Notes under the pieces: generated by a model
The model's database searches: none
What the model was told of the DNA's origin: nothing
Seen by the model: the letters and a program-made list of their open reading frames with translations, nothing else
Origin: a virus
UHGV virus genome: UHGV-0008758
Length of the DNA: 17,779 bases
Strand: one strand, 5' to 3'
Shown here: one piece after another, positions 6,428 to 16,954 of the stretch
How the letters are laid out: each line of letters begins with the position of its first letter
How positions within the stretch are numbered: position 1 is the first letter of the stretch
Position numbers and translations under genes: made by a program

Positions 6428-7322
6428 CCTTTCCCAGTTGCCCGCGCCGCAGATAGTGGACGTGCCGGATTTTGAGACGCTGCTGGCTGAGCGCAAGGCC
6501 GCATTTGTGGCCCTTTATCCGGCGGATGAGCAGGACGCGGTGCGGCGCACGCTGGCGCTGGAATCTGAACCCGTCACCAAGCTTCTGCAGGAAAGCACCT
6601 ACCGTGAAATCCTTTTGCGCCAGCGTATTAACGAGGCCGCGCAGGCGGTCATGGTGGCGTATGCCATCGGCGGCGATCTCGATCAGCTGGCAGCCAACTA
6701 CAACGTGAAACGCCTGACGGTAACGCCTGCCGACAACGACGCGGTGCCGCCGGTCGCGGCAGTAATGGAAAGCGATGAGGCACTGCGCCTGCGTGTTCCG
6801 GCTGCGTTTGAAGGTTTGTCCGTTGCAGGACCGACGGCGGCCTATGAGTTTCACGCCAAAAGCGCGGACGGGCGCGTGGCGGATGCCAGCGCAACCAGCC
6901 CGGCACCGGCGGAGGTGGTGCTTACCGTACTGAGCCGTGAGGGTGACGGTACGGCAGAGGCTGATCTGCTGGCGGTGGTGGAGCAGGCGCTTAACAGTGA
7001 GAACGTGCGCCCGGTGGCAGACCGCCTGACGGTGCGCAGCGCCGAAATAATCCCGTACAGCGTGGATGCGACGATCTTTCTTTATCCGGGGCCGGAAGCT
7101 GAGCCGGTGATGGCGGCGGCAAAAGCTAGCCTGCAGAAGTACATCGCCAGCCAGACGCGGCTGGGCCGTGATATCCGTCGCAGCGCCATTTATGCCGCGC
7201 TGCACGTTGAGGGTGTCCAGCGTGTGGAACTGGCCTCCCCGCTGGATGATATGGTGCTGGATAAGACGCAGGCGGCATCCTGTACGGAATGGAGCGTAAC
7301 CAACGGGGGCACGGATGAATAG
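6414..7322 (+). CDS. J: baseplate protein GpJ
   Basis: The track ORF 6330-7322 is trimmed to ATG 6414 (MAVIDLSQ...) after RBS acaggagcagaca; 302 aa, matching P2 gpJ length. Confidence 0.85.
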   Translation: MAVIDLSQLPAPQIVDVPDFETLLAERKAAFVALYPADEQDAVRRTLALESEPVTKLLQESTYREILLRQRINEAAQAVMVAYAIGGDLDQLAANYNVKRLTVTPADNDAVPPVAAVMESDEALRLRVPAAFEGLSVAGPTAAYEFHAKSADGRVADASATSPAPAEVVLTVLSREGDGTAEADLLAVVEQALNSENVRPVADRLTVRSAEIIPYSVDATIFLYPGPEAEPVMAAAKASLQKYIASQTRLGRDIRRSAIYAALHVEGVQRVELASPLDDMVLDKTQAASCTEWSVTNGGTDE

Positions 7323-7920
7323 CCTGCTGCCGCCCGGTTCATCGCCGCTTGAGCGCCGACTGGCGCAGACCTGCAGCGGCATTTCCGATCTGCAGGTGCC
7401 GCTGCGCGACTTGTGGAACCCGGCAACGTGTCCGGTCAGCTTTCTGCCGTATCTGGCGTGGGCGTTTTCCGTCGACCGCTGGGACGAAAGCTGGACGGAG
7501 AGCGTCAAGCGCCGGGTGGTGCAGGACGCTTTCTATATCCATCAGCACAAGGGGACAACCAGCGCTGTGCGGCGCGTGGTGGAGCCGTTCGGCTTCCTGA
7601 TCCGCATCATTGAGTGGTGGCAGACCGGCGAAACGCCGGGGACGTTTCGCCTTGATATTGGCGTGCAGGAACAAGGCATCACGGAAGAAACCTATCTGGA
7701 ACTTGAGCGGCTGATCGGTGATGCCAAACCGTGCAGCCGTCACCTGATCGGCATGTCCATCAACCTGCAGACCAGTGGGCCGTATTTTATGGGGGCTGCC
7801 ACTTACACCGGCGAAGAAATCACGATCTACCCGTATATCAACGAAACCATTATTTCCGGCGGCACCGCTTATGAGGGCGGGGCAGTCCATGTTATTGACA
7901 CAATGAGAGTAAATCCATGA
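7315..7920 (+). CDS. I: baseplate protein GpI
   Basis: 201 aa, start overlapping the J 3' end; synteny J-I-H. Confidence 0.85.
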   Translation: MNSLLPPGSSPLERRLAQTCSGISDLQVPLRDLWNPATCPVSFLPYLAWAFSVDRWDESWTESVKRRVVQDAFYIHQHKGTTSAVRRVVEPFGFLIRIIEWWQTGETPGTFRLDIGVQEQGITEETYLELERLIGDAKPCSRHLIGMSINLQTSGPYFMGAATYTGEEITIYPYINETIISGGTAYEGGAVHVIDTMRVNP

Positions 7921-9116
7921 GCGCAAAATTTTACACCCTGCTGACGGAAATCGGGGCGGCGAAACTGGCAAGCGCCGCCGCGCTCGGCATTCCGTTGAAA
8001 ATTACCCAGATGGCGGTGGGCGACGGTGGTGGCGTATTACCAACGCCAAGCGCGCAACAGACCGCGTTAGTTGCTGAAAAACACCGCGCCGCGCTGAATA
8101 TGCTGTATATCGATCCGCAGAACAGCAGCCAGATTATTGCTGAGCAGGTGATCCCCGAAACGGAGGGAGGTTGGTGGATTCGTGAGGTAGGTCTGTTTGA
8201 TGAGACTGGAGCACTGATTGCTGTGGGCAACTGCCCGGAGAGCTACAAACCGCAGCTGGCGGAGGGGAGCGGGCGCACGCAGACCGTGCGCATGGTGTTG
8301 ATTACCAGCAGCACAGATAACATCACCCTGAAAATTGATCCGGCAGTGGTGCTGGCGACCCGTAAATATGTTGATGACAAGGTGCTGGAACTAAAGGTGT
8401 ATGTGGATGACCTGATGGCTAGACACCTTGCAGCTGCAGATCCTCATACGCAGTATGCACCAAAAGCCAGTCCGACATTCACTGGTACGCCAAAAGCACC
8501 AACGGCAGCGGCAGGCAATAATTCCACGCAACTTGCTAATACGGCTTTTGTGCAGGCGGCAATTGCTGCACTGGTGGCATCTTCCCCTGCAGCTCTGGAT
8601 ACACTGAATGAGCTGGCAGCAGCGCTGGGGAACGATCCAAATTTTGCCGCCACCATGACAAATGCGCTTGCCGGAAAGATGGATAAGGCAGCCAATGGGA
8701 CGGACATTGCCGACGTATCAGAATTTCTCAAAAACCTTGGTTTAGGAGATATCAGTGCTACAGGTGTTGCGACAGGTAGTATGGGCGAAACCGGATATGC
8801 CATATTTCCGATGATGATTGGCGGTGCACGTAAGACTTTTATTATGCAATGGGGATTGCTGACGCCTCTGAAATCAGGTGGCTATGTGAATATTAACCTT
8901 CCTGTCGCTTTTCCTACTATGGTGATGCAGGCATATGCAACACATGATAATGCGACACTAAACACACGCCCGACAGTATATGCAATTACTACAACAAGCC
9001 GAACCACTATCACTGCGACGGCGACGTGCTTAGATGCTGGCTCAGTGGGCGCTACAGTGACACGCAGTAGTGACGATACTGCGTGTTACGGTCGTTATTT
9101 TGCAATAGGGTGCTGA
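7917..9116 (+). CDS. H: tail fibre protein GpH: conserved N-terminal region plus the currently expressed variable C-terminal tip
   Basis: 399 aa; N-terminus MSAKFYTLLTEIGAAKLASAA... is typical of P2-type fibres; base composition becomes more AT-rich in the 3' part; an invertase crossover site lies inside at 8725-8750. Confidence 0.85.
   Translation: MSAKFYTLLTEIGAAKLASAAALGIPLKITQMAVGDGGGVLPTPSAQQTALVAEKHRAALNMLYIDPQNSSQIIAEQVIPETEGGWWIREVGLFDETGALIAVGNCPESYKPQLAEGSGRTQTVRMVLITSSTDNITLKIDPAVVLATRKYVDDKVLELKVYVDDLMARHLAAADPHTQYAPKASPTFTGTPKAPTAAAGNNSTQLANTAFVQAAIAALVASSPAALDTLNELAAALGNDPNFAATMTNALAGKMDKAANGTDIADVSEFLKNLGLGDISATGVATGSMGETGYAIFPMMIGGARKTFIMQWGLLTPLKSGGYVNINLPVAFPTMVMQAYATHDNATLNTRPTVYAITTTSRTTITATATCLDAGSVGATVTRSSDDTACYGRYFAIGC
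8725..8750. other. left crossover site of the invertible fibre segment (Hin/Gin/Cin-type 26-bp site)
   Basis: TTCTCAAAAACC TT GGTTTAGGAGAT: two 12-bp half-sites around a 2-bp core with the AAACC-NN-GGTTT centre characteristic of hix/gix/cix sites; lies in H codons for EFLKNLGLGD. Confidence 0.7.
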
Positions 9117-9117
9117 A

Positions 9118-9561
9118 ATGAATCTTAAATATTTTTCTCCATCTGAAAATGCGTTTTATGCCGGGGAGCTTAAAGAAAGCTATATCGCTGCTGGCTCATG
9201 GCCTTCTGATGCCTCGGAGGTTGATGAAAGTCTTTATCTTGAGTTTATCGATGAGCCGCCAGCAGGTAAGTATCGTGGAGTGGATGATGCAGGTATGCCC
9301 TGCTGGCTTGAAATTCCTCCACCCACCGCAGAGGAAATGGCATCGAATGCAGAGAATATGAGACAGCAGCTCATTGATGAGGCAAATGTTTATATAAACA
9401 AACGTCAGTGGCCGGGAAAAGCAGCGATAGGCCGTTTAAAGGCGGATGAACTGGAACGATATAACCTTTGGCTGGATTACCTGGACGCACTGGAACTGGT
9501 TGATACCTCCAGTGCTCCAGATATTGAATGGCCTACGCCTCCGGCAGTTCAGGCCAGATGA
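9118..9561 (+). CDS. G: tail fibre assembly chaperone GpG (Tfa)
   Basis: 147 aa directly after H; C-terminal motif LWLDYLDALELVDTSSAPDIEWPTPP is typical of Tfa proteins. Confidence 0.85.
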   Translation: MNLKYFSPSENAFYAGELKESYIAAGSWPSDASEVDESLYLEFIDEPPAGKYRGVDDAGMPCWLEIPPPTAEEMASNAENMRQQLIDEANVYINKRQWPGKAAIGRLKADELERYNLWLDYLDALELVDTSSAPDIEWPTPPAVQAR

Positions 9562-10135
9562 CATCCGGCGCGGTGCTGGTATCTGTTGCCGTCACCGCGT
9601 CAATGTAATCCAGCACGGCGTTAAGTCGGGTTGTTTCTGCCTGCGTCAACTTCCGTCCAGCCTGTAATTTCAGCTGAATCAGACTAATGGAAACCATTGC
9701 TGCATCAATCAGTGACTGGCGCTGTGCTTCTGCCGCTTCTACTGCGGCGCTATGCTGTGCCTCAGTATCCGTCACCCATTTCTCACCATCCCATTTATCA
9801 TATGGCGTTAACGGGGCGATAGTGGTTGTATTTTCAGGGTAATCACCCGGAGCTGTGATTTCTTTGGCGTCTCCCGTTTCGGTGTTATAGACGATTTCAC
9901 CGCGATGGTCTGACACATATTCCCATGATTTTAAATCCACAGAACGGCAAATTGTATAACCAGCTTTATGTGTAACTGGTGCATCTAAACAAGAATATGC
10001 CGGGATACCGACGCCAACCGCAAGATATTCAGTTGATGTGGAAATATATTCCCGCGTTTCACCATCATAGTTATAAACGGTAATATCCCCTGCCTTTGTA
10101 GCAACAAGTCCACTATTTAATATTGCTTTATCCAT
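9533..10135 (-). CDS. alternative tail fibre assembly chaperone (Tfa')
   Basis: 200 aa on the minus strand; C-terminal motif LNAVLDYIDAVTATDTSTAPDVIWPELP parallels GpG; its 3' end overlaps the G 3' end by 29 bp; its start overlaps the stop of the alternative fibre tip (TAATG). Confidence 0.8.
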   Translation of the reverse strand: MDKAILNSGLVATKAGDITVYNYDGETREYISTSTEYLAVGVGIPAYSCLDAPVTHKAGYTICRSVDLKSWEYVSDHRGEIVYNTETGDAKEITAPGDYPENTTTIAPLTPYDKWDGEKWVTDTEAQHSAAVEAAEAQRQSLIDAAMVSISLIQLKLQAGRKLTQAETTRLNAVLDYIDAVTATDTSTAPDVIWPELPEA

Positions 10136-10623
10136 TATGCTGCTCTCACGATATAGTTAAATGCAATGTTTCTTGGTCTGTTCTCTGAGGCAGTTGGCAC
10201 TACTCTTGAAGCATCAAAATTGACTAAATGAGGATTGTTTGGGGTATTTGGAATGATTGTGGTGTTACCTATCGTATTACGAAGTGCTGATTGACTTACA
10301 AAAACACCACTCGCTGTATTAAAGCTAATAGCCGCATTAGCTTCGGTTTGTCCATTACCAAATGTGCCGGTTATATTACGAATAGCATCCCCCTGAGCAG
10401 ACAGAATTTCGCGCCCCGCGTCAATACCGCGCCCGTCATCCCAACCACGAATAAACTCACCACGTAAATCAGGCAATTTATTTGTCGGATAAGCCTTTGC
10501 CAGTTCCGGGTATTCTTCAGCAGAAAAAACCGCACCGTTGCATTTCAGCCAGCCTGTTGGCGGAGTGGCGGAAGGCCACGGAACAGGGACACCAACAGGT
10601 AATGCAGAGCCTTCTCCCAAACC
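10135..10623 (-). CDS. silent alternative tail-fibre C-terminal cassette (tail-collar-type tip), with no start codon of its own
   Basis: Minus-strand frame encodes GLGEGSALPVGVPVPWPSATPPTGWLKCNGAVF...LPDLRGEFIRGWDDGRGIDAGR, the classic tail-collar motif of Mu/P1-type fibre tips; an in-frame TGA lies just upstream at 10639-10641 and no start or RBS is present; inversion would fuse it in frame to H. Confidence 0.75.
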   Translation of the reverse strand, partial: GLGEGSALPVGVPVPWPSATPPTGWLKCNGAVFSAEEYPELAKAYPTNKLPDLRGEFIRGWDDGRGIDAGREILSAQGDAIRNITGTFGNGQTEANAAISFNTASGVFVSQSALRNTIGNTTIIPNTPNNPHLVNFDASRVVPTASENRPRNIAFNYIVRAA

Positions 10624-10637
10624 AACCTTTGAAAATG
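10612..10637. other. right crossover site of the invertible segment (inner half and core conserved, outer half degenerate)
   Basis: TTCTCCCAAACC AA CCTTTGAAAATG; the inner half and core are the reverse complement of the left site's inner half and core (GGTTTGGGAGAA versus GGTTTAGGAGAT), but the outer half matches poorly. Confidence 0.55.
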
Positions 10638-10659
10638 GTCACCTATATAGGTGACCATT
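10634..10659. repeat. perfect 26-bp palindrome; candidate terminator for the minus-strand orphan gene or a protein-binding site
   Basis: AATGGTCACCTAT|ATAGGTGACCATT is an exact reverse-complement pair; starts 4 nt beyond the stop of ORF 10664-11086; on the minus strand it is followed by TTCAAAGG, a weak U-tract. Confidence 0.45.
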
Positions 10660-10663
10660 CGGG

Positions 10664-11086
10664 TTAATGCAGCGTTGTAGTTGAGCTGGACTCTGCCATT
10701 GCCACTGTCAATTCATCGCCTTCGGCTGAGATCTTAATGGTATTACTTCCTTCTGATTTAGCGCCTTTTGGTAGACCTAGCTGATCATAGATACACAAGA
10801 ATCTTGAATCATTTATAAAGGTGATTTCTGTTACAGTCCCACCTTCAACGACCTTAGAGTCTATTGATTTTATCAAATTGATATCCTGAACATTAATGTG
10901 CTTTATCGCATCCCAGTTAAGGCTGATGTCCACGTTATCCTTTTGCATCGTTATCACATGACCGGCCTTATGCTGGGTTGTGACTTTTCCATCAGGGCTC
11001 ATCGTAATCTTTTGCCCCATGTGATAAATAATTTGAGTTCCGTCTTCGAGACACTCGATTTTTGGCTCTTTAGTAAAGTCGTTCAT
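10664..11086 (-). CDS. hypothetical protein, 140 aa, AT-rich orphan (accessory/moron candidate)
   Basis: Minus-strand ORF with RBS AAGGA about 7 nt upstream of ATG; hand-counted GC about 38% versus about 60% in flanking structural genes; no TM helix or signal peptide seen; no family recognised. Confidence 0.6.
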   Translation of the reverse strand: MNDFTKEPKIECLEDGTQIIYHMGQKITMSPDGKVTTQHKAGHVITMQKDNVDISLNWDAIKHINVQDINLIKSIDSKVVEGGTVTEITFINDSRFLCIYDQLGLPKGAKSEGSNTIKISAEGDELTVAMAESSSTTTLH

Positions 11087-11291
11087 GAAAATCCTTCAAT
11101 TATCTGTTGCTGGAAGGTGCTAATCTACACGAATCCTTGGTTATGTATGTAATGAGGCTCTAGAAATCCACTTGAATATAAATAAATTTTTATGGTGTTG
11201 GCTTGTAATGCTCGCGTAGCTCTTTGTCAAAAGTGAAACTCTGATAACCTGGTTCTACTGACGAACAGAAGGATGAGCAGGAGATCGCTTT

Positions 11292-11852
11292 ATGATTATT
11301 GGGTATGCACGAGTATCAAGTAACCATCAGGACACCGAGCTTCAGATGCAGGCGCTCAGAGCTGCTGGCTGTAAGTTAATTTTTGAGGAAAAGGCTTCTG
11401 GCCGTAAGACGAATCGACCAATCTTGAAGAAAGTGGTTGAGATGCTTGAACCCGGTGACGAACTGGTCATCTGGAAGTTAGATCGTATCGGTCGCAATGT
11501 ACTGCACGCATTATTGACCTTTCAGAGCCTCGCAGAACGCAATGTTAATATTCGTTCTATTACAGATGGCGTTGACCTGAGCACTGCCAGTGGGCGCTAT
11601 AACTTCCGTAATATTCTCTCTGCGGCACAATATGAGTCTGATCTGAATAGTGAACGCACTCTGGCAGGGTTAGCGGTTGCCCGCGCTAAGGGGAGGATTG
11701 GCGGACGTAAGCCTAAGTATACTGATGAGCACTGGGATGCGTTTGAACGGGAAATTAAGTCCGGCTGCTCACATCGTGATATAGCTCTCAAATATGGGGT
11801 CGGCCTGTCGACTCTCTACAAACGTTATCCGGCTCAGCAAGAGCATCACTAA
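11292..11852 (+). CDS. serine recombinase, DNA invertase (Hin/Gin/Cin/Pin family)
   Basis: 186 aa; N-terminal [13 protein letters not shown] with the catalytic Ser in YARVSS; [11 protein letters not shown]; C-terminal HTH region GRIGGRKPK...[12 protein letters not shown]; AGGAG RBS. Confidence 0.9.
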
Positions 11853-11950
11853 ACACTCTTTGCGTTCATTTTTGCACTGTGCAGAATGTGTCTTTTTGGC
11901 ACCTTCTGGCAGTGCAAAATTTATCGCGTTTTGGTGCAAAAAAATCGCCG

Positions 11951-11980
11951 CGCTACAATCTGCGGGGATTTTTTTTGCCC
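11951..11980 (+). terminator. possible intrinsic terminator after the invertase gene (weak GC dyad plus T8 tract)
   Basis: CCGC...GCGG short stem followed by GGATTTTTTTT at 11967-11976; the stem is weak, so confidence is low. Confidence 0.3.
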
Positions 11981-11987
11981 CTTCCAT

Positions 11988-12005
11988 TGTGCCATTCTCC
12001 ACACA
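11988..12005 (+). promoter_or_regulatory. candidate P2-type late promoter activator box (TGT-N12-ACA) upstream of FI
   Basis: TGTGCCATTCTCCACACA about 75 bp upstream of the FI ATG; same TGTGCCA start as the box upstream of V. Confidence 0.6.
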
Positions 12006-12079
12006 TAGCCCGGTGCGTGCGCAGTGCGCATATCAACCAGAACATAGGCAGACACCCTGTAAACCGGAGAGACTGCCTT

Positions 12080-13252
12080 ATGGCTCAGGACTACCACCAC
12101 GGCGTGCGCGTTGTTGAAATCAACGAGGGCACCCGATCCATTACCACGGTGAGCACCGCCATTGTGGGCATGGTATGCACCGGCGATGATGCTGATGCGT
12201 CCATGTTTCCACTCAATAAGCCGGTTCTGCTGACCGATGTGTTGACCGCCAGCGGTAAAGCGGGCGAGTCCGGCACGCTGGCCCGTTCGCTGGATGCGAT
12301 TGCAGACCAGGCTAAACCCGTGACCGTCGTTGTACGTGTGGCGCAGGGCGAAACCGAAGCGGAAACCACCTCCAACATTATCGGCGGCGTGACCGCTGAC
12401 GGTAAAAAGACGGGCATGAAAGCGCTGCTTTCGGCGCAGTCGCAGCTCGGCGTCAAGCCGCGCATTCTCGGCGTGCCGGGACACGACACGCAGGCGGTTG
12501 CCACTGAGCTGCTGAGCGTGGCGCAGAGCCTGCGCGGGTTTGCTTATCTGTCCGCCTATGGCTGCAAAACGGTGGAAGAAGCGATTGCCTACCGTGACAA
12601 TTTCAGCCAGCGCGAGGGGATGCTGATCTGGCCTGACTTCATCAACTTTGACACCGTGCTGAATGCAGATGCGACGGCTTATGCCTCCGCTCGTGCGCTC
12701 GGCCTGCGTGCCAAAATTGACGAGCAGACCGGCTGGCACAAAACCCTGTCCAACGTGGGCGTGAATGGTGTCACCGGCATTTCCGCTGATGTGTTCTGGG
12801 ATCTGCAGGACCCGGCAACCGATGCGGGACTGTTGAACCAGAACGACGTCACCACGCTTATCCGCAAAGACGGCTTCCGCTTCTGGGGTTCCCGCTGCCT
12901 CAGTGACGATCCGCTGTTTGCCTTTGAGAACTACACCCGCACGGCGCAGGTGCTGGCTGACACCATCGCAGAAGCGCACATGTGGGCGGTGGATGGCGTG
13001 CTTAACCCATCGCTGGCCCGTGACATTATCGAAGGTATCCGCGCCAAGCTGCGCAGCCTGAAAGCGCAGGGTTACATCATCGGCGCAGACTGCTGGCTGG
13101 ATGAGTCGGTGAACGATAAAGACTCCCTGAAAGCCGGGAAGCTCACTATCGACTACGACTACACGCCGGTGCCGCCGCTTGAAAACCTGATGCTGCGCCA
13201 GCGCATCACCGATCAGTACCTGCTGGATTTCTCCAGCCAGGTCAGCGCGTAA
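12080..13252 (+). CDS. FI: tail sheath protein FI
   Basis: From ATG 12080 ([19 protein letters not shown]...) with GGAGAG RBS; about 390 aa versus P2 FI about 396 aa. The track ORF start at 11879 runs through the intergenic promoter region and is rejected. Confidence 0.9.
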
Positions 13253-14268: not shown

Positions 14269-16954
14269 TAATAACCTGCGACTGCAGGTAGTTCTGGGGG
14301 CGGTGGATAAGTTAACCCGCCCATTTAAAAATGCACAGGCTGGCTCTAAGGAGCTGGCATCAGCTATTCGACAAACCCGCGATCAGATTAAAAAGCTGAG
14401 TGATGCTGGAGGTCAGCTTAAATCTTTCGATCAGCTAACTCAAAGTGTTAGCCGTACTGGTGCCGAACTGGATCAGGCGAGGCTACGCGCTCAAATGATG
14501 ACGCGCGAAATGTCTTCTTTGGAATCCCCGACAAAAAAACAAACGCAGGCGCTTGAAGCTCAGTGGCGTGCTGTTTCACGTCTTGAACAAAAACAGCAAC
14601 AGGAAACTCGCCAGATGGCGGCAGCCAGGGCTGAGCTTTATCGGCTGGGGTTATCTGCTGGGGGCGGAGCGCGTGAGACGGCACGGATTGCACAAGAAAC
14701 TGAGCGGTATAACCGACAGTTGGCTGAGCAGGAGCGCAGGCTGCGTGAAGTTGGCGAGCGTCAGCGAAAGCTCAACGCCATCAAAGCCAAGGCTGAAAAG
14801 ACCCGCGAGTTAAGGAACTCTCTGGCAGGTAATGGTGCAGGGGCGATGGCGGCTGGGGTAACTACTGGCATGACGTTGCTGGCTCCAGTAAAAGCCTATT
14901 CAGAATCAGAAAATGCAGCGAATCAGCTCGCCGGTTCAATGATGGGGCCGGGCGGAAAGGTAGCGCCTGAATTTGAAAAAATTAACCGGCTTGCAGTTGC
15001 TTTGGGCGATAAGCTGCCGGGAACAACAGCCGACTTTCAGAACATGATGACTATGCTACGCCGTCAGGGTATGTCGGCGCAGGTCATCCTGGGCGGCTTG
15101 GGAGAGTCAGCAGCTTATCTTGGCGTGCAGTTACAGATGGCTCCCACTGCAGCAGCTGAGTTTGCGGCTAAGTTACAAGATGCTACCCAGACCTCCGAAA
15201 AAGACATGATGAATCTGATGGACGTGATCCAGAAAGGATTCTACGCAGGGGTAGATTCAGGAAATATGCTGCAGGGGTTCTCAAAAATCAGCAGTGCGAT
15301 GGATATTATTCATAAAAAGGGATTGGACGCGGCTAAGACATTTGCTCCTCTATTAGTTATGGCTGATCAGGCTGGTATGGCTGGAGAGTCAGCTGGTAAT
15401 GCCTACCGAAAAGTATTTCAGTCCGTCATGAATACGGAAAAAGTGAAGGATGCTAATGATGAACTAAAAGGCACCGGTGTTAAGTTCGATTTTACGGATG
15501 GCAAGGGGGAGTTTGGCGGGCTGGAGAAAATGTACACGCAGTTAGCTCAACTCCAAAAGCTTAATACTGAGAAAAGGTTAGCTACTCTAAAAGGTATTTT
15601 TGGGGATGATGCGGAAACGCTGCAGGTGCTAAATATTATGATTACCAAAGGCATCTCAGGGTATCGAGAAACGGCTTCAAAGCTACAAAATCAGGCTTCT
15701 CTGCGCGAGCGTGTTGATGCCTCCTTGAATACTCTTGGTAATAAATGGGAAGCCGCTACAGGTTCCTTTACCAATGCTATGGCTAGTATCGGTGAAACAG
15801 TCGCCCCTGCATTAAAGAAGCTGGCAGCTGGCTTTGCGATTGTTGCTACCGCCGTTGGGGTTGTTTCACTGGCGCTGGCGTCCGTGTTAGGACCGATGGC
15901 AGTAGTGCGAATGAGCGCAGGGGTGATGGGGCTAAAATTTTCATCTGCATTTGGTCTTATTGGGAAAGCAATCAGTTCTGTTGGCAAGTCAGTTATATGG
16001 CTGGGCCGATTGATGTTTGCAAATCCTATACTGGCTGTCATTGGGTTGATCGCCGCTGGTGCTATTTATATCTGGCAGAATTGGGACACGCTTGGGCCAA
16101 AGTTCAAGGCCATGTGGGATGCCGTATGTAATGCCACAGGTACGGCATGGGATTGGATTAAAGAAAAGGCCAGCGCCGCATGGGAGGGGATTAAATCACT
16201 GTTCTTTAATTATACCTTGCCGGGATTAATAGCTAAAAATTGGGATGCAATAAAATCTGGCGTTTCTGAGGCGTGGGCTAATATCAGGCAATCTATTAGT
16301 GATAAATGGAATTCGATCTTGGCTGATGTTGCCGCGCTTCCTGCGAAGTTTCAGGACATGGGCAGCGCCATTATTGACAGTATTCTTAATGGAATTAATG
16401 CCAAATGGGAGACACTAAAAAGCAAGCTTTCCTCAGTCACCGATTATCTGCCTGACTGGATGACCGGAAATAATAAAACACAAGGCAAAGCACAGGTGCA
16501 GGTGGTTGGTGGAGCAGCGGCTGCTGCGGTTCCGTTTGCTGGCATGTATGACAGCGGTGGCACGATCCCGCGTGGTCAGTTTGGCATCGTTGGGGAGAAC
16601 GGCCCCGAAATAGTGAACGGTCCCGCAAATGTGACCAGCAGACGGCGCACTGCTGCGCTGGCTTCCGTCGTTGCAGGCGTTATGGGCGTAGCGGCAGCGC
16701 CTGCAGAGGCTGCTCCACTACATCCTTACAGTCTGCCTACTGTGGCATATAAACAAAGCCAGCCAGCGAAATCAGCCAGCGCGCCGCCTGTGATGCACTT
16801 TGAAACTCACGCGCCGATCACTATCTATGCTCAGCCAGGGCAAAGTGCGCAGGATATTGCCCGTGAAGTGGCGCGGCAGCTCGACGAGCGTGAACGCAGG
16901 GCCAGGGCTAAAGCACGCAGTAATTTCAGCGATCAAGGGGGATATGAATCATGA
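14261..16954 (+). CDS. T: tail tape measure protein GpT
   Basis: About 897 aa from ATG 14261 (MSDNNLRLQ...); coiled-coil N-terminal third, Gly/Ala-rich hydrophobic segments near the C-terminal third; position after E/E'. The track start at 14213 is an upstream extension. Confidence 0.9.
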   Translation: MSDNNLRLQVVLGAVDKLTRPFKNAQAGSKELASAIRQTRDQIKKLSDAGGQLKSFDQLTQSVSRTGAELDQARLRAQMMTREMSSLESPTKKQTQALEAQWRAVSRLEQKQQQETRQMAAARAELYRLGLSAGGGARETARIAQETERYNRQLAEQERRLREVGERQRKLNAIKAKAEKTRELRNSLAGNGAGAMAAGVTTGMTLLAPVKAYSESENAANQLAGSMMGPGGKVAPEFEKINRLAVALGDKLPGTTADFQNMMTMLRRQGMSAQVILGGLGESAAYLGVQLQMAPTAAAEFAAKLQDATQTSEKDMMNLMDVIQKGFYAGVDSGNMLQGFSKISSAMDIIHKKGLDAAKTFAPLLVMADQAGMAGESAGNAYRKVFQSVMNTEKVKDANDELKGTGVKFDFTDGKGEFGGLEKMYTQLAQLQKLNTEKRLATLKGIFGDDAETLQVLNIMITKGISGYRETASKLQNQASLRERVDASLNTLGNKWEAATGSFTNAMASIGETVAPALKKLAAGFAIVATAVGVVSLALASVLGPMAVVRMSAGVMGLKFSSAFGLIGKAISSVGKSVIWLGRLMFANPILAVIGLIAAGAIYIWQNWDTLGPKFKAMWDAVCNATGTAWDWIKEKASAAWEGIKSLFFNYTLPGLIAKNWDAIKSGVSEAWANIRQSISDKWNSILADVAALPAKFQDMGSAIIDSILNGINAKWETLKSKLSSVTDYLPDWMTGNNKTQGKAQVQVVGGAAAAAVPFAGMYDSGGTIPRGQFGIVGENGPEIVNGPANVTSRRRTAALASVVAGVMGVAAAPAEAAPLHPYSLPTVAYKQSQPAKSASAPPVMHFETHAPITIYAQPGQSAQDIAREVARQLDERERRARAKARSNFSDQGGYES

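What the first reader, a model, noticed from the sequence alone, without database searches (positions are those of the whole stretch)
8725..10637. Invertible tail-fibre segment with mapped crossover sites and an in-frame alternative fibre tip
The left site TTCTCAAAAACC-TT-GGTTTAGGAGAT lies inside H; the right site TTCTCCCAAACC-AA-CCTTTGAAAATG lies at 10612-10637 in inverted orientation with complementary 2-bp cores. Between them are the current fibre tip, Tfa (G), an oppositely oriented Tfa', and a start-less fibre tip carrying the tail-collar motif. Inverting 8739-10623 joins ...EFLKNL to GLGEGSALPVGVPVPWP... in frame, predicting a 436-aa alternative fibre (274 constant + 162 aa) in place of the current 399 aa. 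Both orientations encode Gly-Leu-Gly across the junction. This is a host-range switch of the Mu G / P1 C / e14 P type.
Basis: seen in the sequence. Interest (0 to 1): 0.6.

Follow-up and report, generated by a model that had tools for sequence, protein, structure and literature searches.

The report
Invertible phage tail-fibre switch (known type)

Summary
Every sequence statement in the finding is correct. The two 26-bp sites are at 8725-8750 and 10612-10637, in inverted orientation, with 2-bp cores TT and AA. Between them lie the current tip (Gp53-like_C), a 147-aa Tfa, an opposed 200-aa Tfa' and a start-less Collar-domain tip. In-silico inversion of 8739-10623 gives an open 436-aa fibre.

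A Gin-like serine invertase (11292-11852) lies 654 bp to the right. The backbone is a Fels-2/SopEPhi-like P2 tail module. Positions 9409-10630 are about 98% identical to the experimentally invertible e14 P segment, and the right repeat matches the published e14 repeat 16/16.

Other genomes show both orientations. A prophage with 99.94%-identical flanks has a Collar tip fused to H (436 aa, 96% identical). E. coli GB089 and G47-1 show the mirror arrangement of the same cassette pair. Among 10 loci that share the right-hand module, homology starts at 10609-10624, the right site and its core.

Not shown: flipping of this exact element. Its predicted 436-aa product and recombinant junction were not found.

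Verdict: a new member of a known kind, of low interest. The local oddities are a divergent invertase (about 50% identical to Gin and Pin-type invertases) and an orphan 140-aa gene with a terminator hairpin between the right site and the invertase.

The parts
7917..8738 (+). Constant N-terminal part of tail fibre H (274 codons), outside the invertible segment
   Evidence: PF12571 covers residues 1-150. 822 nt = 274 codons, ending at the core. 99.94% identical to L003-L005 up to position 8749.
8725..8750 (.). Left crossover site TTCTCAAAAACC-TT-GGTTTAGGAGAT (core 8737-8738), inside the H reading frame
   Evidence: 1 mismatch to the palindromic consensus, 0 expected by chance. Equivalent sites occur at the same place in H in L001-L003, L011 and L012 and in L017-L020 and L023. 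e14 (L013, L014), Citrobacter phage Omnitron (L015) and Mu (L016) have sites at the corresponding place in their own fibre genes.
8739..9116 (+). Currently expressed variable fibre tip (125 aa, Gp53-like_C domain)
   Evidence: PF21882 covers residues 308-399 of H.
9118..9561 (+). Tfa, the tail-fibre assembly chaperone for the current tip (147 aa)
   Evidence: PF02413, E=3.5e-33; phrog_188.
9533..10135 (-). Tfa', the chaperone for the silent tip (200 aa); a tfaE homologue
   Evidence: PF02413, E=4.6e-32; phrog_105. About 98% identical at the DNA level to e14 tfaE.
10135..10623 (-). Silent, start-less alternative fibre tip (162 codons plus stop, Collar domain); an stfE-like C-terminus
   Evidence: PF07484, E=1.2e-15; phrog_523 tail collar fibre protein. 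In frame with H after in-silico inversion.
10612..10637 (.). Right crossover site TTCTCCCAAACC-AA-CCTTTGAAAATG (core 10624-10625). The inner half is canonical; the outer half is degenerate.
   Evidence: Window 10610-10625 equals the e14 repeat CCTTCTCCCAAACCAA. Homology to 10 loci that share the right-hand module begins at 10609-10624.
10634..10659 (-). 26-bp perfect palindrome. On the minus-strand RNA it forms a 12-bp hairpin followed by UUUU. Probably the terminator of ORF140, insulating the silent cassette.
   Evidence: I4; z = -2.88. The function is inferred.
10664..11086 (-). ORF140, an orphan 140-aa gene inserted between the right site and the invertase; function unknown
   Evidence: No Pfam, PHROG or PADLOC hit. 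One cluster in the 5.8-billion-protein collection and 5 representatives among 1.84 billion. A 186-aa Resolvase/HTH_7 gene is called next to it in 7 of 8 distinct contexts.
11292..11852 (+). Serine DNA invertase (186 aa), Gin/Hin/Cin/Pin family, divergent clade
   Evidence: PF00239 + PF02796. Gin 3UJ3, E=4.8e-55. phrog_125 DNA invertase. 48.9-50% identical to Mu Gin and to the invertases of L002, L011 and L012; 72% to that of Citrobacter phage Omnitron.

Best explanation
This is a Gin/Pin-type programmed DNA inversion switch in the tail-fibre operon of a Fels-2/SopEPhi-like (P2 family) prophage.

The serine invertase at 11292-11852 binds the two 26-bp sites, cuts with a 2-bp stagger at the cores (8737-8738 and 10624-10625), and rotates and religates the strands, flipping 8739-10623.

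- In the present orientation, the constant 274-aa H stem is fused to a Gp53-like tip (399 aa) and co-expressed with its 147-aa Tfa.
- After inversion, the same stem is fused to a Collar-domain, StfE-like tip (436 aa). That tip is translationally coupled (TAATG) to the 200-aa TfaE-like chaperone.

A lysogen population would therefore release virions with two receptor specificities.

Shown: the sites, the reading frames, the domain content, the invertase family, homology to e14 P, and both orientations among relatives. Inferred: that this copy is active, that it depends on Fis and an enhancer, and that the two tips differ in host range.
For: - Sites and the in-frame fusion are confirmed.
- Domain content is confirmed.
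- The invertase is intact, aligns with Gin over residues 1-185, has S9, and keeps the GGR..PK arm and the LSTLYK recognition helix.
- The backbone is 87-90% identical to Fels-2, SopEPhi, SEN8 and related phages over about 67% of the window.
- Half of the segment is 98% identical to the e14 P segment. The e14 segment has been shown to invert at exactly this repeat, even under an invertase only 38% identical to PinE (PMC12529663).
- A 436-aa fused fibre exists at 96% identity (P0062) in prophages with 99.94%-identical flanks. The homology breaks at 8749 and 10619, and the interior is inverted.
- L011 and L012 carry the mirror arrangement; L002 has the same arrangement as the window.
- e14 occurs in both orientations (L013 versus L014).
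- In 10 loci that share the ORF140 module, identity starts at 10609-10624. In 8 of them the sequence inside the core reads as a start-less tip that begins GLGE, GLGD or QLGE, with at least five distinct continuations.
- Inversion in P2-like prophages and Fels-2 is documented (PMC4272514; PMC7953296).
Against: - There is no direct evidence that this copy flips. The exact 399-aa H is on 8 contigs, while the exact 436-aa product is absent from the protein collection.
- The recombinant right junction that this copy's own Gp53-like tip would make was not found. The degenerate junction pattern found no match in the genome collection and two matches in the metagenome collection, both with the other inner half-site.
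- The outer half of the right site is a poor half-site, with 6 mismatches in the whole site.
- The invertase is only about 50% identical to Gin/Pin-type enzymes and lies 654 bp from the site.
- No convincing Fis/enhancer pair could be identified.
- The nearest inverted relatives differ in segment content (84.6% identity), so cassette replacement contributes to the variation as well as inversion.
Confidence: 0.85

Rival explanations
1. Fossil switch. The architecture is that of an invertible segment, but this copy is locked in the present orientation. Possible causes are the degenerate outer half of the right site, the displacement of the invertase by ORF140, or a missing enhancer. The Collar tip and Tfa' would then be silent relics.
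For: - The right site has 6 mismatches to the consensus.
- The exact 436-aa product is absent, while the 399-aa product is on 8 contigs.
- The junction scans of the metagenome and genome collections did not turn up this copy's recombinant junction.
- The enhancer was not identified.
- The sister element L003 looks locked: its inner right half-site is degenerate and its second tip has been replaced.
Against: - The invertase ORF is intact, and the identical protein is on hundreds of contigs.
- The silent tip and Tfa' are intact and in frame.
- The outer half that begins CCTTT is shared with Citrobacter phage Omnitron, which has the same invertase clade and no ORF140. The asymmetry therefore seems native to this clade.
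- From memory, not tested here: the natural hixR site also has a poor half-site.
- With the same right-hand module, Collar-type tips (window, L001, L023), Gp53-like tips (L019, L020) and tips of other types (L017, L018) sit next to the site.
Confidence: 0.1
2. The variation is generated mainly by homologous or illegitimate cassette exchange between prophages (for example with the e14 P segment), not by site-specific inversion. The conserved GLG-coding sites act only as module boundaries.
For: - The window and L003 share 99.94%-identical flanks, but their interiors are only 84.6% identical and differ in gene content.
- Window 9409-10630 is 98% identical to e14, whereas the H stem is about 82% identical to other P2-like prophages. 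This is a mosaic.
- At least five tip types sit next to the same right-hand module.
Against: - Exchange and inversion are not exclusive.
- Homology breaks fall at the 2-bp core (10624 in L021 and L022), as expected for serine-recombinase crossover.
- An intact invertase is linked in 7 of 8 contexts.
- Inversion at this very repeat has been demonstrated experimentally in e14.
Confidence: 0.05

Closest known systems
e14 P segment / PinE (E. coli K-12 defective prophage e14: stfP-tfaP / tfaE-stfE)
   Same: - The same cassette pair: a Gp53-like tip with a roughly 147-aa Tfa, opposed to a 200-aa TfaE with a Collar-domain StfE tip.
- Window 9409-10630 is 98.3% identical to e14 in strain XH988.
- The right repeat is identical 16/16 to the published e14 repeat.
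- e14 is seen in both orientations.
   Different: - The backbone here is a P2/Fels-2-type tail module (I-H...FI), not the e14 baseplate (ymfQ).
- The invertase was not compared directly with PinE, whose gene is frameshifted in the e14 locus fetched (L013). It is only about 50% identical to Mu Gin and to the invertases beside the same cassette pair in E. coli P2-like prophages.
- The invertase is separated from the segment by ORF140.
- The left half (8739 to about 9409) is not near-identical to e14.
Fels-2 (Fin) / SopEPhi and E. coli P2-like prophage invertible tail-fibre segments
   Same: - The same phage family: 87-90% DNA identity over about 67% of the window.
- The same position, between H and the tail sheath gene FI.
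- A crossover site at the same point of H.
- Inversion is documented in EPEC P2-like prophages and in Fels-2.
- L002, L011 and L012 have the same layout.
   Different: - In those elements the invertase starts about 30 bp after the right site, and their outer half-site is near-canonical (CGTTTAAGAAAA).
- Here a different invertase allele plus ORF140 replaces that module from the core outward.
Mu G segment / Gin and P1 C segment / Cin
   Same: - The same logic: a constant fibre stem outside the segment, two opposed tip-plus-chaperone cassettes inside, 26-bp sites with a 2-bp core, and a small serine invertase to the right (for the Mu layout; for Gin homology).
   Different: - The tips are unrelated in sequence.
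- The invertase is 48.9% identical to Gin.
- Residues aligned to Gin H106 and M114 are R and Y here.
- The enhancer is not identified.
Citrobacter phage Omnitron invertase and segment
   Same: - The closest phage invertase: 72-73% identity.
- A 200-aa Tfa' and a 161-aa start-less tip lie next to the invertase.
- Its right site TTCTCCCAAACC-AA-CCTTTTTTATAA also has CC after the core.
   Different: - No ORF140: the invertase starts about 60 bp after the site.
- The record is not annotated, so nothing is said there about inversion.

Membership tests
Gin/Hin/Cin/Pin-type DNA inversion system | Small serine recombinase with an N-terminal catalytic domain carrying the active-site Ser9 and a C-terminal HTH | tested here: met
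   PF00239 + PF02796. Aligns with Gin 3UJ3 over residues 1-185, E=4.8e-55, with S9 present. The role of S9 is taken from PMC3575834.
Gin/Hin/Cin/Pin-type DNA inversion system | Two 26-bp crossover sites in inverted orientation with matching non-palindromic 2-bp cores | tested here: met
   8725-8750 (core TT) and 10612-10637 (core AA). Caveat: the outer half of the right site is degenerate.
Gin/Hin/Cin/Pin-type DNA inversion system | Recombinational enhancer with two Fis sites in cis, classically in the 5' end of the invertase gene | tested here: inconclusive
   A crude Fis-pattern scan finds one pair 49 bp apart (11346 and 11395). The same scan is non-specific on Mu gin.
Gin/Hin/Cin/Pin-type DNA inversion system | The segment is found in both orientations | tested here: inconclusive
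   Met among relatives. Not seen for this exact element. No read data were available.
Invertible tail-fibre host-range segment (Mu G / P1 C / e14 P) | A constant fibre N-terminus outside the segment; two opposed cassettes inside, each an alternative C-terminus plus its own assembly chaperone; in-frame fusion in both orientations | tested here: met
   (399 aa versus 436 aa; two Caudo_TAP genes; Gp53-like_C versus Collar tips).
Invertible tail-fibre host-range segment (Mu G / P1 C / e14 P) | The two orientations confer different adsorption or host range | not testable with these tools
   Needs orientation-locked phages and adsorption assays.
P2-like (Peduoviridae, Fels-2-like) tail module | Gene order V-W-J-I-H-(G)...FI-FII-E-T, with P2-family domains | tested here: met
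   Tail_P2_I, Phage_tail_fib and sheath domains. Gene tables of L007, which is 100% identical to window 7000-12500. 87-90% identity to Fels-2, SopEPhi and SEN8.
Shufflon (Rci tyrosine recombinase, multiple sfx sites) | A tyrosine recombinase and more than two crossover sites | tested here: not met
   The recombinase is of the serine type. Only two sites are present in the window.

The most novel reading that the evidence does not exclude
The orphan ORF140 and its hairpin, wedged between the right crossover site and a divergent invertase clade, may be a functional accessory of the switch rather than a passive moron. The invertase has R and Y at the positions of Gin H106 and M114; M114V makes Gin Fis-independent. 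Possible roles for ORF140: a directionality or regulatory factor, a way of uncoupling invertase expression from site occupancy, or a lysogen-expressed protein whose transcription is deliberately insulated from the silent cassette. The module travels as a unit: it sits next to invertible fibre cassettes in six P2-like contexts and also occurs in a Mu-like baseplate context that lacks an inner half-site.
Probability: 0.1. Interest if true: 0.5.

Novelty: new member of a known kind. Interest (0 to 1): 0.15.

Why it matters
The case shows that a careful reader can map serine-invertase crossover sites and predict the alternative fibre from raw sequence alone. Biologically it adds one more mosaic: a Fels-2-like backbone, an e14-type P-segment cassette and a divergent invertase. 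The class has been understood since the 1980s.

Practical value:
- Annotation pipelines call the silent tip a stand-alone "phage tail protein" and miss the alternative 436-aa fibre.
- The shared cassette (98% identical to e14) breaks metagenome assemblies.

The only open question of some interest is what the widespread orphan ORF140 does next to this invertase clade.

Tried and rejected
- An exact look-up of the predicted 436-aa fusion found nothing in the collection.
- Exact junction scans covering both possible inner half-sites found two metagenome loci, both with TTCTCCCAAACC, and none in the genome collection. Neither locus is the window's own recombinant junction.
- A search for further crossover sites (a shufflon or Min-like multi-site system) found none: only two sites, plus one probable chance match at 14997.
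- A Fis/enhancer search with a hand-made pattern was non-specific.
- ORF140 has no Pfam, PHROG or PADLOC hit. Homologue searches gave one cluster and five representatives. AlphaFold models reached pLDDT 42.7 (single sequence) and 61.2 (4-sequence alignment). Foldseek against the PDB gave nothing with TM above 0.35. Its function is left unknown.
- Rfam found no RNA family in the window.
- The sigma-70 promoter scan found fewer sites than the shuffled controls, so it was uninformative.
- The contig breaks in Tfa (L008-L010) were considered as a sign of inversion and rejected. They fall at about 9400-9462, not at the sites, and coincide with the start of the stretch that is 98% identical to e14.
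Full report
OBSERVATION

The left site TTCTCAAAAACC-TT-GGTTTAGGAGAT is at 8725-8750, inside the 399-aa ORF 7917-9116. The right site TTCTCCCAAACC-AA-CCTTTGAAAATG is at 10612-10637. The 2-bp cores are TT (8737-8738) and AA (10624-10625). They are complementary, so the sites are inverted repeats, which is the geometry a serine invertase needs for inversion.

A palindromic invertase-site consensus (TTCTCNNAAACCNNGGTTTNNGAGAA, up to 3 mismatches) hits only the left site, with 0 expected by chance. The core plus inner half-site pattern TTGGTTTRGGAGAW matches both sites exactly. One further match with 2 mismatches lies in the tape-measure gene, against 0.23 expected. The right site is asymmetric: its inner half is canonical, and its outer half carries all 6 mismatches.

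Pfam confirms the gene content:
- H has Phage_tail_fib at the N-terminus and Gp53-like_C at the tip.
- 9118-9561 (+) is a Caudo_TAP chaperone of 147 aa.
- 9533-10135 (-) is a Caudo_TAP chaperone of 200 aa.
- 10135-10620 (-) carries a Collar domain and has no ATG or GTG start. An in-frame TGA lies just outside the site at 10639-10641.

Inverting 8739-10623 in silico yields ...EFLKNL|GLGEGSALPVGVPVPWP... and an open 436-aa ORF (274 + 162 aa). G-L-G is encoded across the junction in both states. No stop was miscounted.

CONTEXT

The window is a P2-family tail and head module. It is 87-90% identical to Yersinia phage MLG42, Salmonella phages SEN8, Fels-2, SopEPhi and RE2010 over about 67% of its length. 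Window 7000-12500 is 100% identical to a 32-kb Hadza gut metagenome contig (L007).

To the right of the segment lie:
- a 26-bp perfect palindrome (10634-10659);
- an orphan 140-aa ORF on the minus strand (10664-11086);
- a 205-bp intergenic region;
- a 186-aa serine recombinase (11292-11852) with Resolvase + HTH_7 domains.

The recombinase aligns with Mu Gin over residues 1-185 (3UJ3, E=4.8e-55). It keeps the serine aligned with Gin's catalytic S9, the GGR-x-PK arm and the LSTLYK recognition helix. It falls in PHROG 125, "DNA invertase". It is nevertheless a divergent allele. It is 48.9-50% identical to Mu Gin and to the invertases beside the same cassettes in E. coli P2-like prophages, and 72% identical to the invertase of Citrobacter phage Omnitron.

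WHAT THE SEGMENT IS

Window 9409-10630 (the end of Tfa, Tfa' and the Collar tip) is 98.3% identical to the tfaE/stfE half of the e14 element in E. coli XH988, whose neighbours are ymfQ, pinE and mcrA. Window 10610-10625 (CCTTCTCCCAAACCAA) is identical to the published e14 P-segment inverted repeat. Inversion at that repeat has been shown by sequencing and qPCR, driven by PinE and even by PinQ, which is only 38% identical to PinE (PMC12529663).

BOTH ORIENTATIONS IN NATURE

1. The predicted fusion exists. P0062 is 436 aa long, 96% identical, and covers 100% of the query. Its contigs (L003-L005) are 99.94% identical to the window up to 8749 and again from 10619. Between those points the Collar tip and Tfa' lie in the opposite orientation, at 84.6% identity.

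2. E. coli GB089 (L011) and G47-1 (L012) carry the exact mirror layout: H-Collar fused, a 200-aa Tfa, then on the opposite strand a 147-aa Tfa and a start-less gp53-like tip next to the recombinase. Their DNA is 98% identical to window 9409-10625. E. coli LT883142 (L002) has the window's layout.

3. e14 itself appears in both orientations (L013 versus L014).

4. The exact ORF140 protein is listed in 1750 index blocks of the contig collection. In 7 of 8 distinct contexts a 186-aa Resolvase/HTH_7 gene is called next to it. In L001, L003, L017-L023 and L025-L026, near-100% identity to the window starts at 10609-10624, that is, at the right site and its core. In 8 of the 10 loci aligned at that junction, the sequence inside the core reads on the reverse strand as a start-less tip that begins GLGE, GLGD or QLGE, with at least five distinct continuations. 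With this same module, the tip next to the site is a Collar type in some loci, a Gp53-like type in others and another type in the rest.

Homology breaks that fall on the 2-bp core are what a serine-recombinase crossover predicts. Inversion of tail-fibre segments in P2-like prophages (EPEC) and in Fels-2 is already in the literature (PMC4272514; PMC7953296).

WHAT IS NOT SHOWN

I found no copy of this very segment in the flipped state.
- The exact 399-aa H is on 8 contigs, while the exact 436-aa product is not in the collection.
- The junction scans did not find the recombinant junction that the window's own Gp53-like tip would make (ATCTCCTAAACC-AA-CCTTTG...). The genome collection gave no match, and the two metagenome matches both carry the other inner half-site.
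- The closest inverted relative differs in cassette content, so cassette replacement operates as well as inversion.
- A Fis/enhancer pair could not be identified with a crude scan.
- The degenerate outer half-site is a concern, but it is shared (CC after the core) with Omnitron, which has the same invertase clade and no ORF140. The asymmetry therefore appears native to this clade and not damage from the insertion.

MECHANISM (BEST ESTIMATE, 0.85)

The mechanism is Gin/Pin-type inversion. Invertase dimers bind the two sites, cut with a 2-bp stagger at the cores, rotate subunits by 180 degrees and religate. This swaps which tip-plus-chaperone cassette is fused to, and transcribed with, the constant H stem. 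In the alternative state the fibre stop and the Tfa' start overlap (TAATG), which suggests translational coupling (sequence).

The hairpin at 10634-10659 followed by UUUU on the minus strand (z = -2.9) probably terminates ORF140 transcription before it enters the silent cassette. This is inferred.

Rivals:
- a locked fossil (0.10);
- variation that arises only by cassette exchange (0.05).

COMPARISON AND NOVELTY

The element meets the defining features of the Gin/Hin/Cin/Pin inversion family that could be tested: the recombinase type, the site pair and core geometry, and the opposed tip-plus-chaperone cassettes. The enhancer test and the orientation test for this exact element are inconclusive. 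It is a new member of a known kind.

Local peculiarities:
- The invertase belongs to a divergent clade, with R and Y at the positions of Gin H106 and M114. M114V makes Gin Fis-independent (PMC3575834).
- The invertase is displaced 654 bp from its site by an orphan gene.

ORF140 has no family hit. It has one 90% cluster in the 5.8-billion-protein collection and five 50% representatives among 1.84 billion. Its AlphaFold model is low-confidence and all-beta, with no structural match. Whether ORF140 has anything to do with the switch is unknown; I put that at about 0.1.

VERDICT

Interest is low (0.15), because this class of host-range switch is textbook and this architecture is abundant in public genomes.

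Noticed in passing
window 10664-11086 (-): ORF140 is a near-orphan 140-aa gene between the right crossover site and the invertase. It has no Pfam, PHROG or PADLOC hit. It has one cluster in the 5.8-billion-protein collection and 5 representatives among 1.84 billion (the best distant homologue is 38% identical and also 140 aa). The AlphaFold model is all-beta with low confidence, and no fold match was found. The exact protein is listed in 1750 index blocks of the contig collection, and a 186-aa Resolvase/HTH_7 gene is called next to it in 7 of 8 distinct contexts.
   Followed up: partly
window 10634-10659: A 26-bp perfect palindrome (AATGGTCACCTAT/ATAGGTGACCATT) overlaps the last 4 bp of the right crossover site. 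On the minus-strand RNA it forms a 12-bp hairpin followed by UUUU (z = -2.9). It is probably the ORF140 terminator, so the U-tract doubles as the outer half-site. A protein-binding operator is not excluded.
   Followed up: partly
window 11292-11852, residues 106 and 114: The invertase has Arg and Tyr where Gin has H106 and M114, and the whole helix-E stretch differs ([19 protein letters not shown] versus GRFFFHVMGALAEMERELI). M114V makes Gin Fis-independent (PMC3575834), so this clade (which includes Citrobacter phage Omnitron) might be regulated differently.
   Followed up: no
L008, L009, L010 (contig ends correspond to window ~9400-9462): Three metagenome contigs carrying the identical H gene all stop inside Tfa. 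This is just where about 98% identity to the e14 P segment of E. coli begins (9409). The break is probably an assembly-graph break caused by the shared cassette, not by inversion.
   Followed up: partly
L003 6809-8850 (also L004, L005): This sister prophage has 99.94%-identical flanks and the Collar tip fused to H. The other half of its segment is replaced by a 242-aa ORF with no Pfam hit. Its inner right half-site is degenerate (ACGCGCAAAACC), so the element is probably locked. An orphan copy of the left outer half-site TTCTCAAAAACC sits at L003 8097.
   Followed up: partly
L017 (left and right junctions): Both ends of this segment encode the same start of the variable region (GLGDLVDALIKTNN...). 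This is an inverted duplication that extends beyond the 26-bp site.
   Followed up: no
L022 3735-4923 and flanks: Here the ORF140 module and a 186-aa Resolvase/HTH_7 gene occur in a Mu-like baseplate context (Gp45, Gp46, Gp48), next to a gene with an AadA_C nucleotidyltransferase domain. No inner half-site is present, and homology to the window starts exactly at the core (10624).
   Followed up: no
L026 3938-5149: This metagenome contig is 100% identical to window 7450-8448. It then reaches the right crossover site after only about 180 bp. It is either a deletion variant of the fibre region or a chimeric assembly.
   Followed up: no
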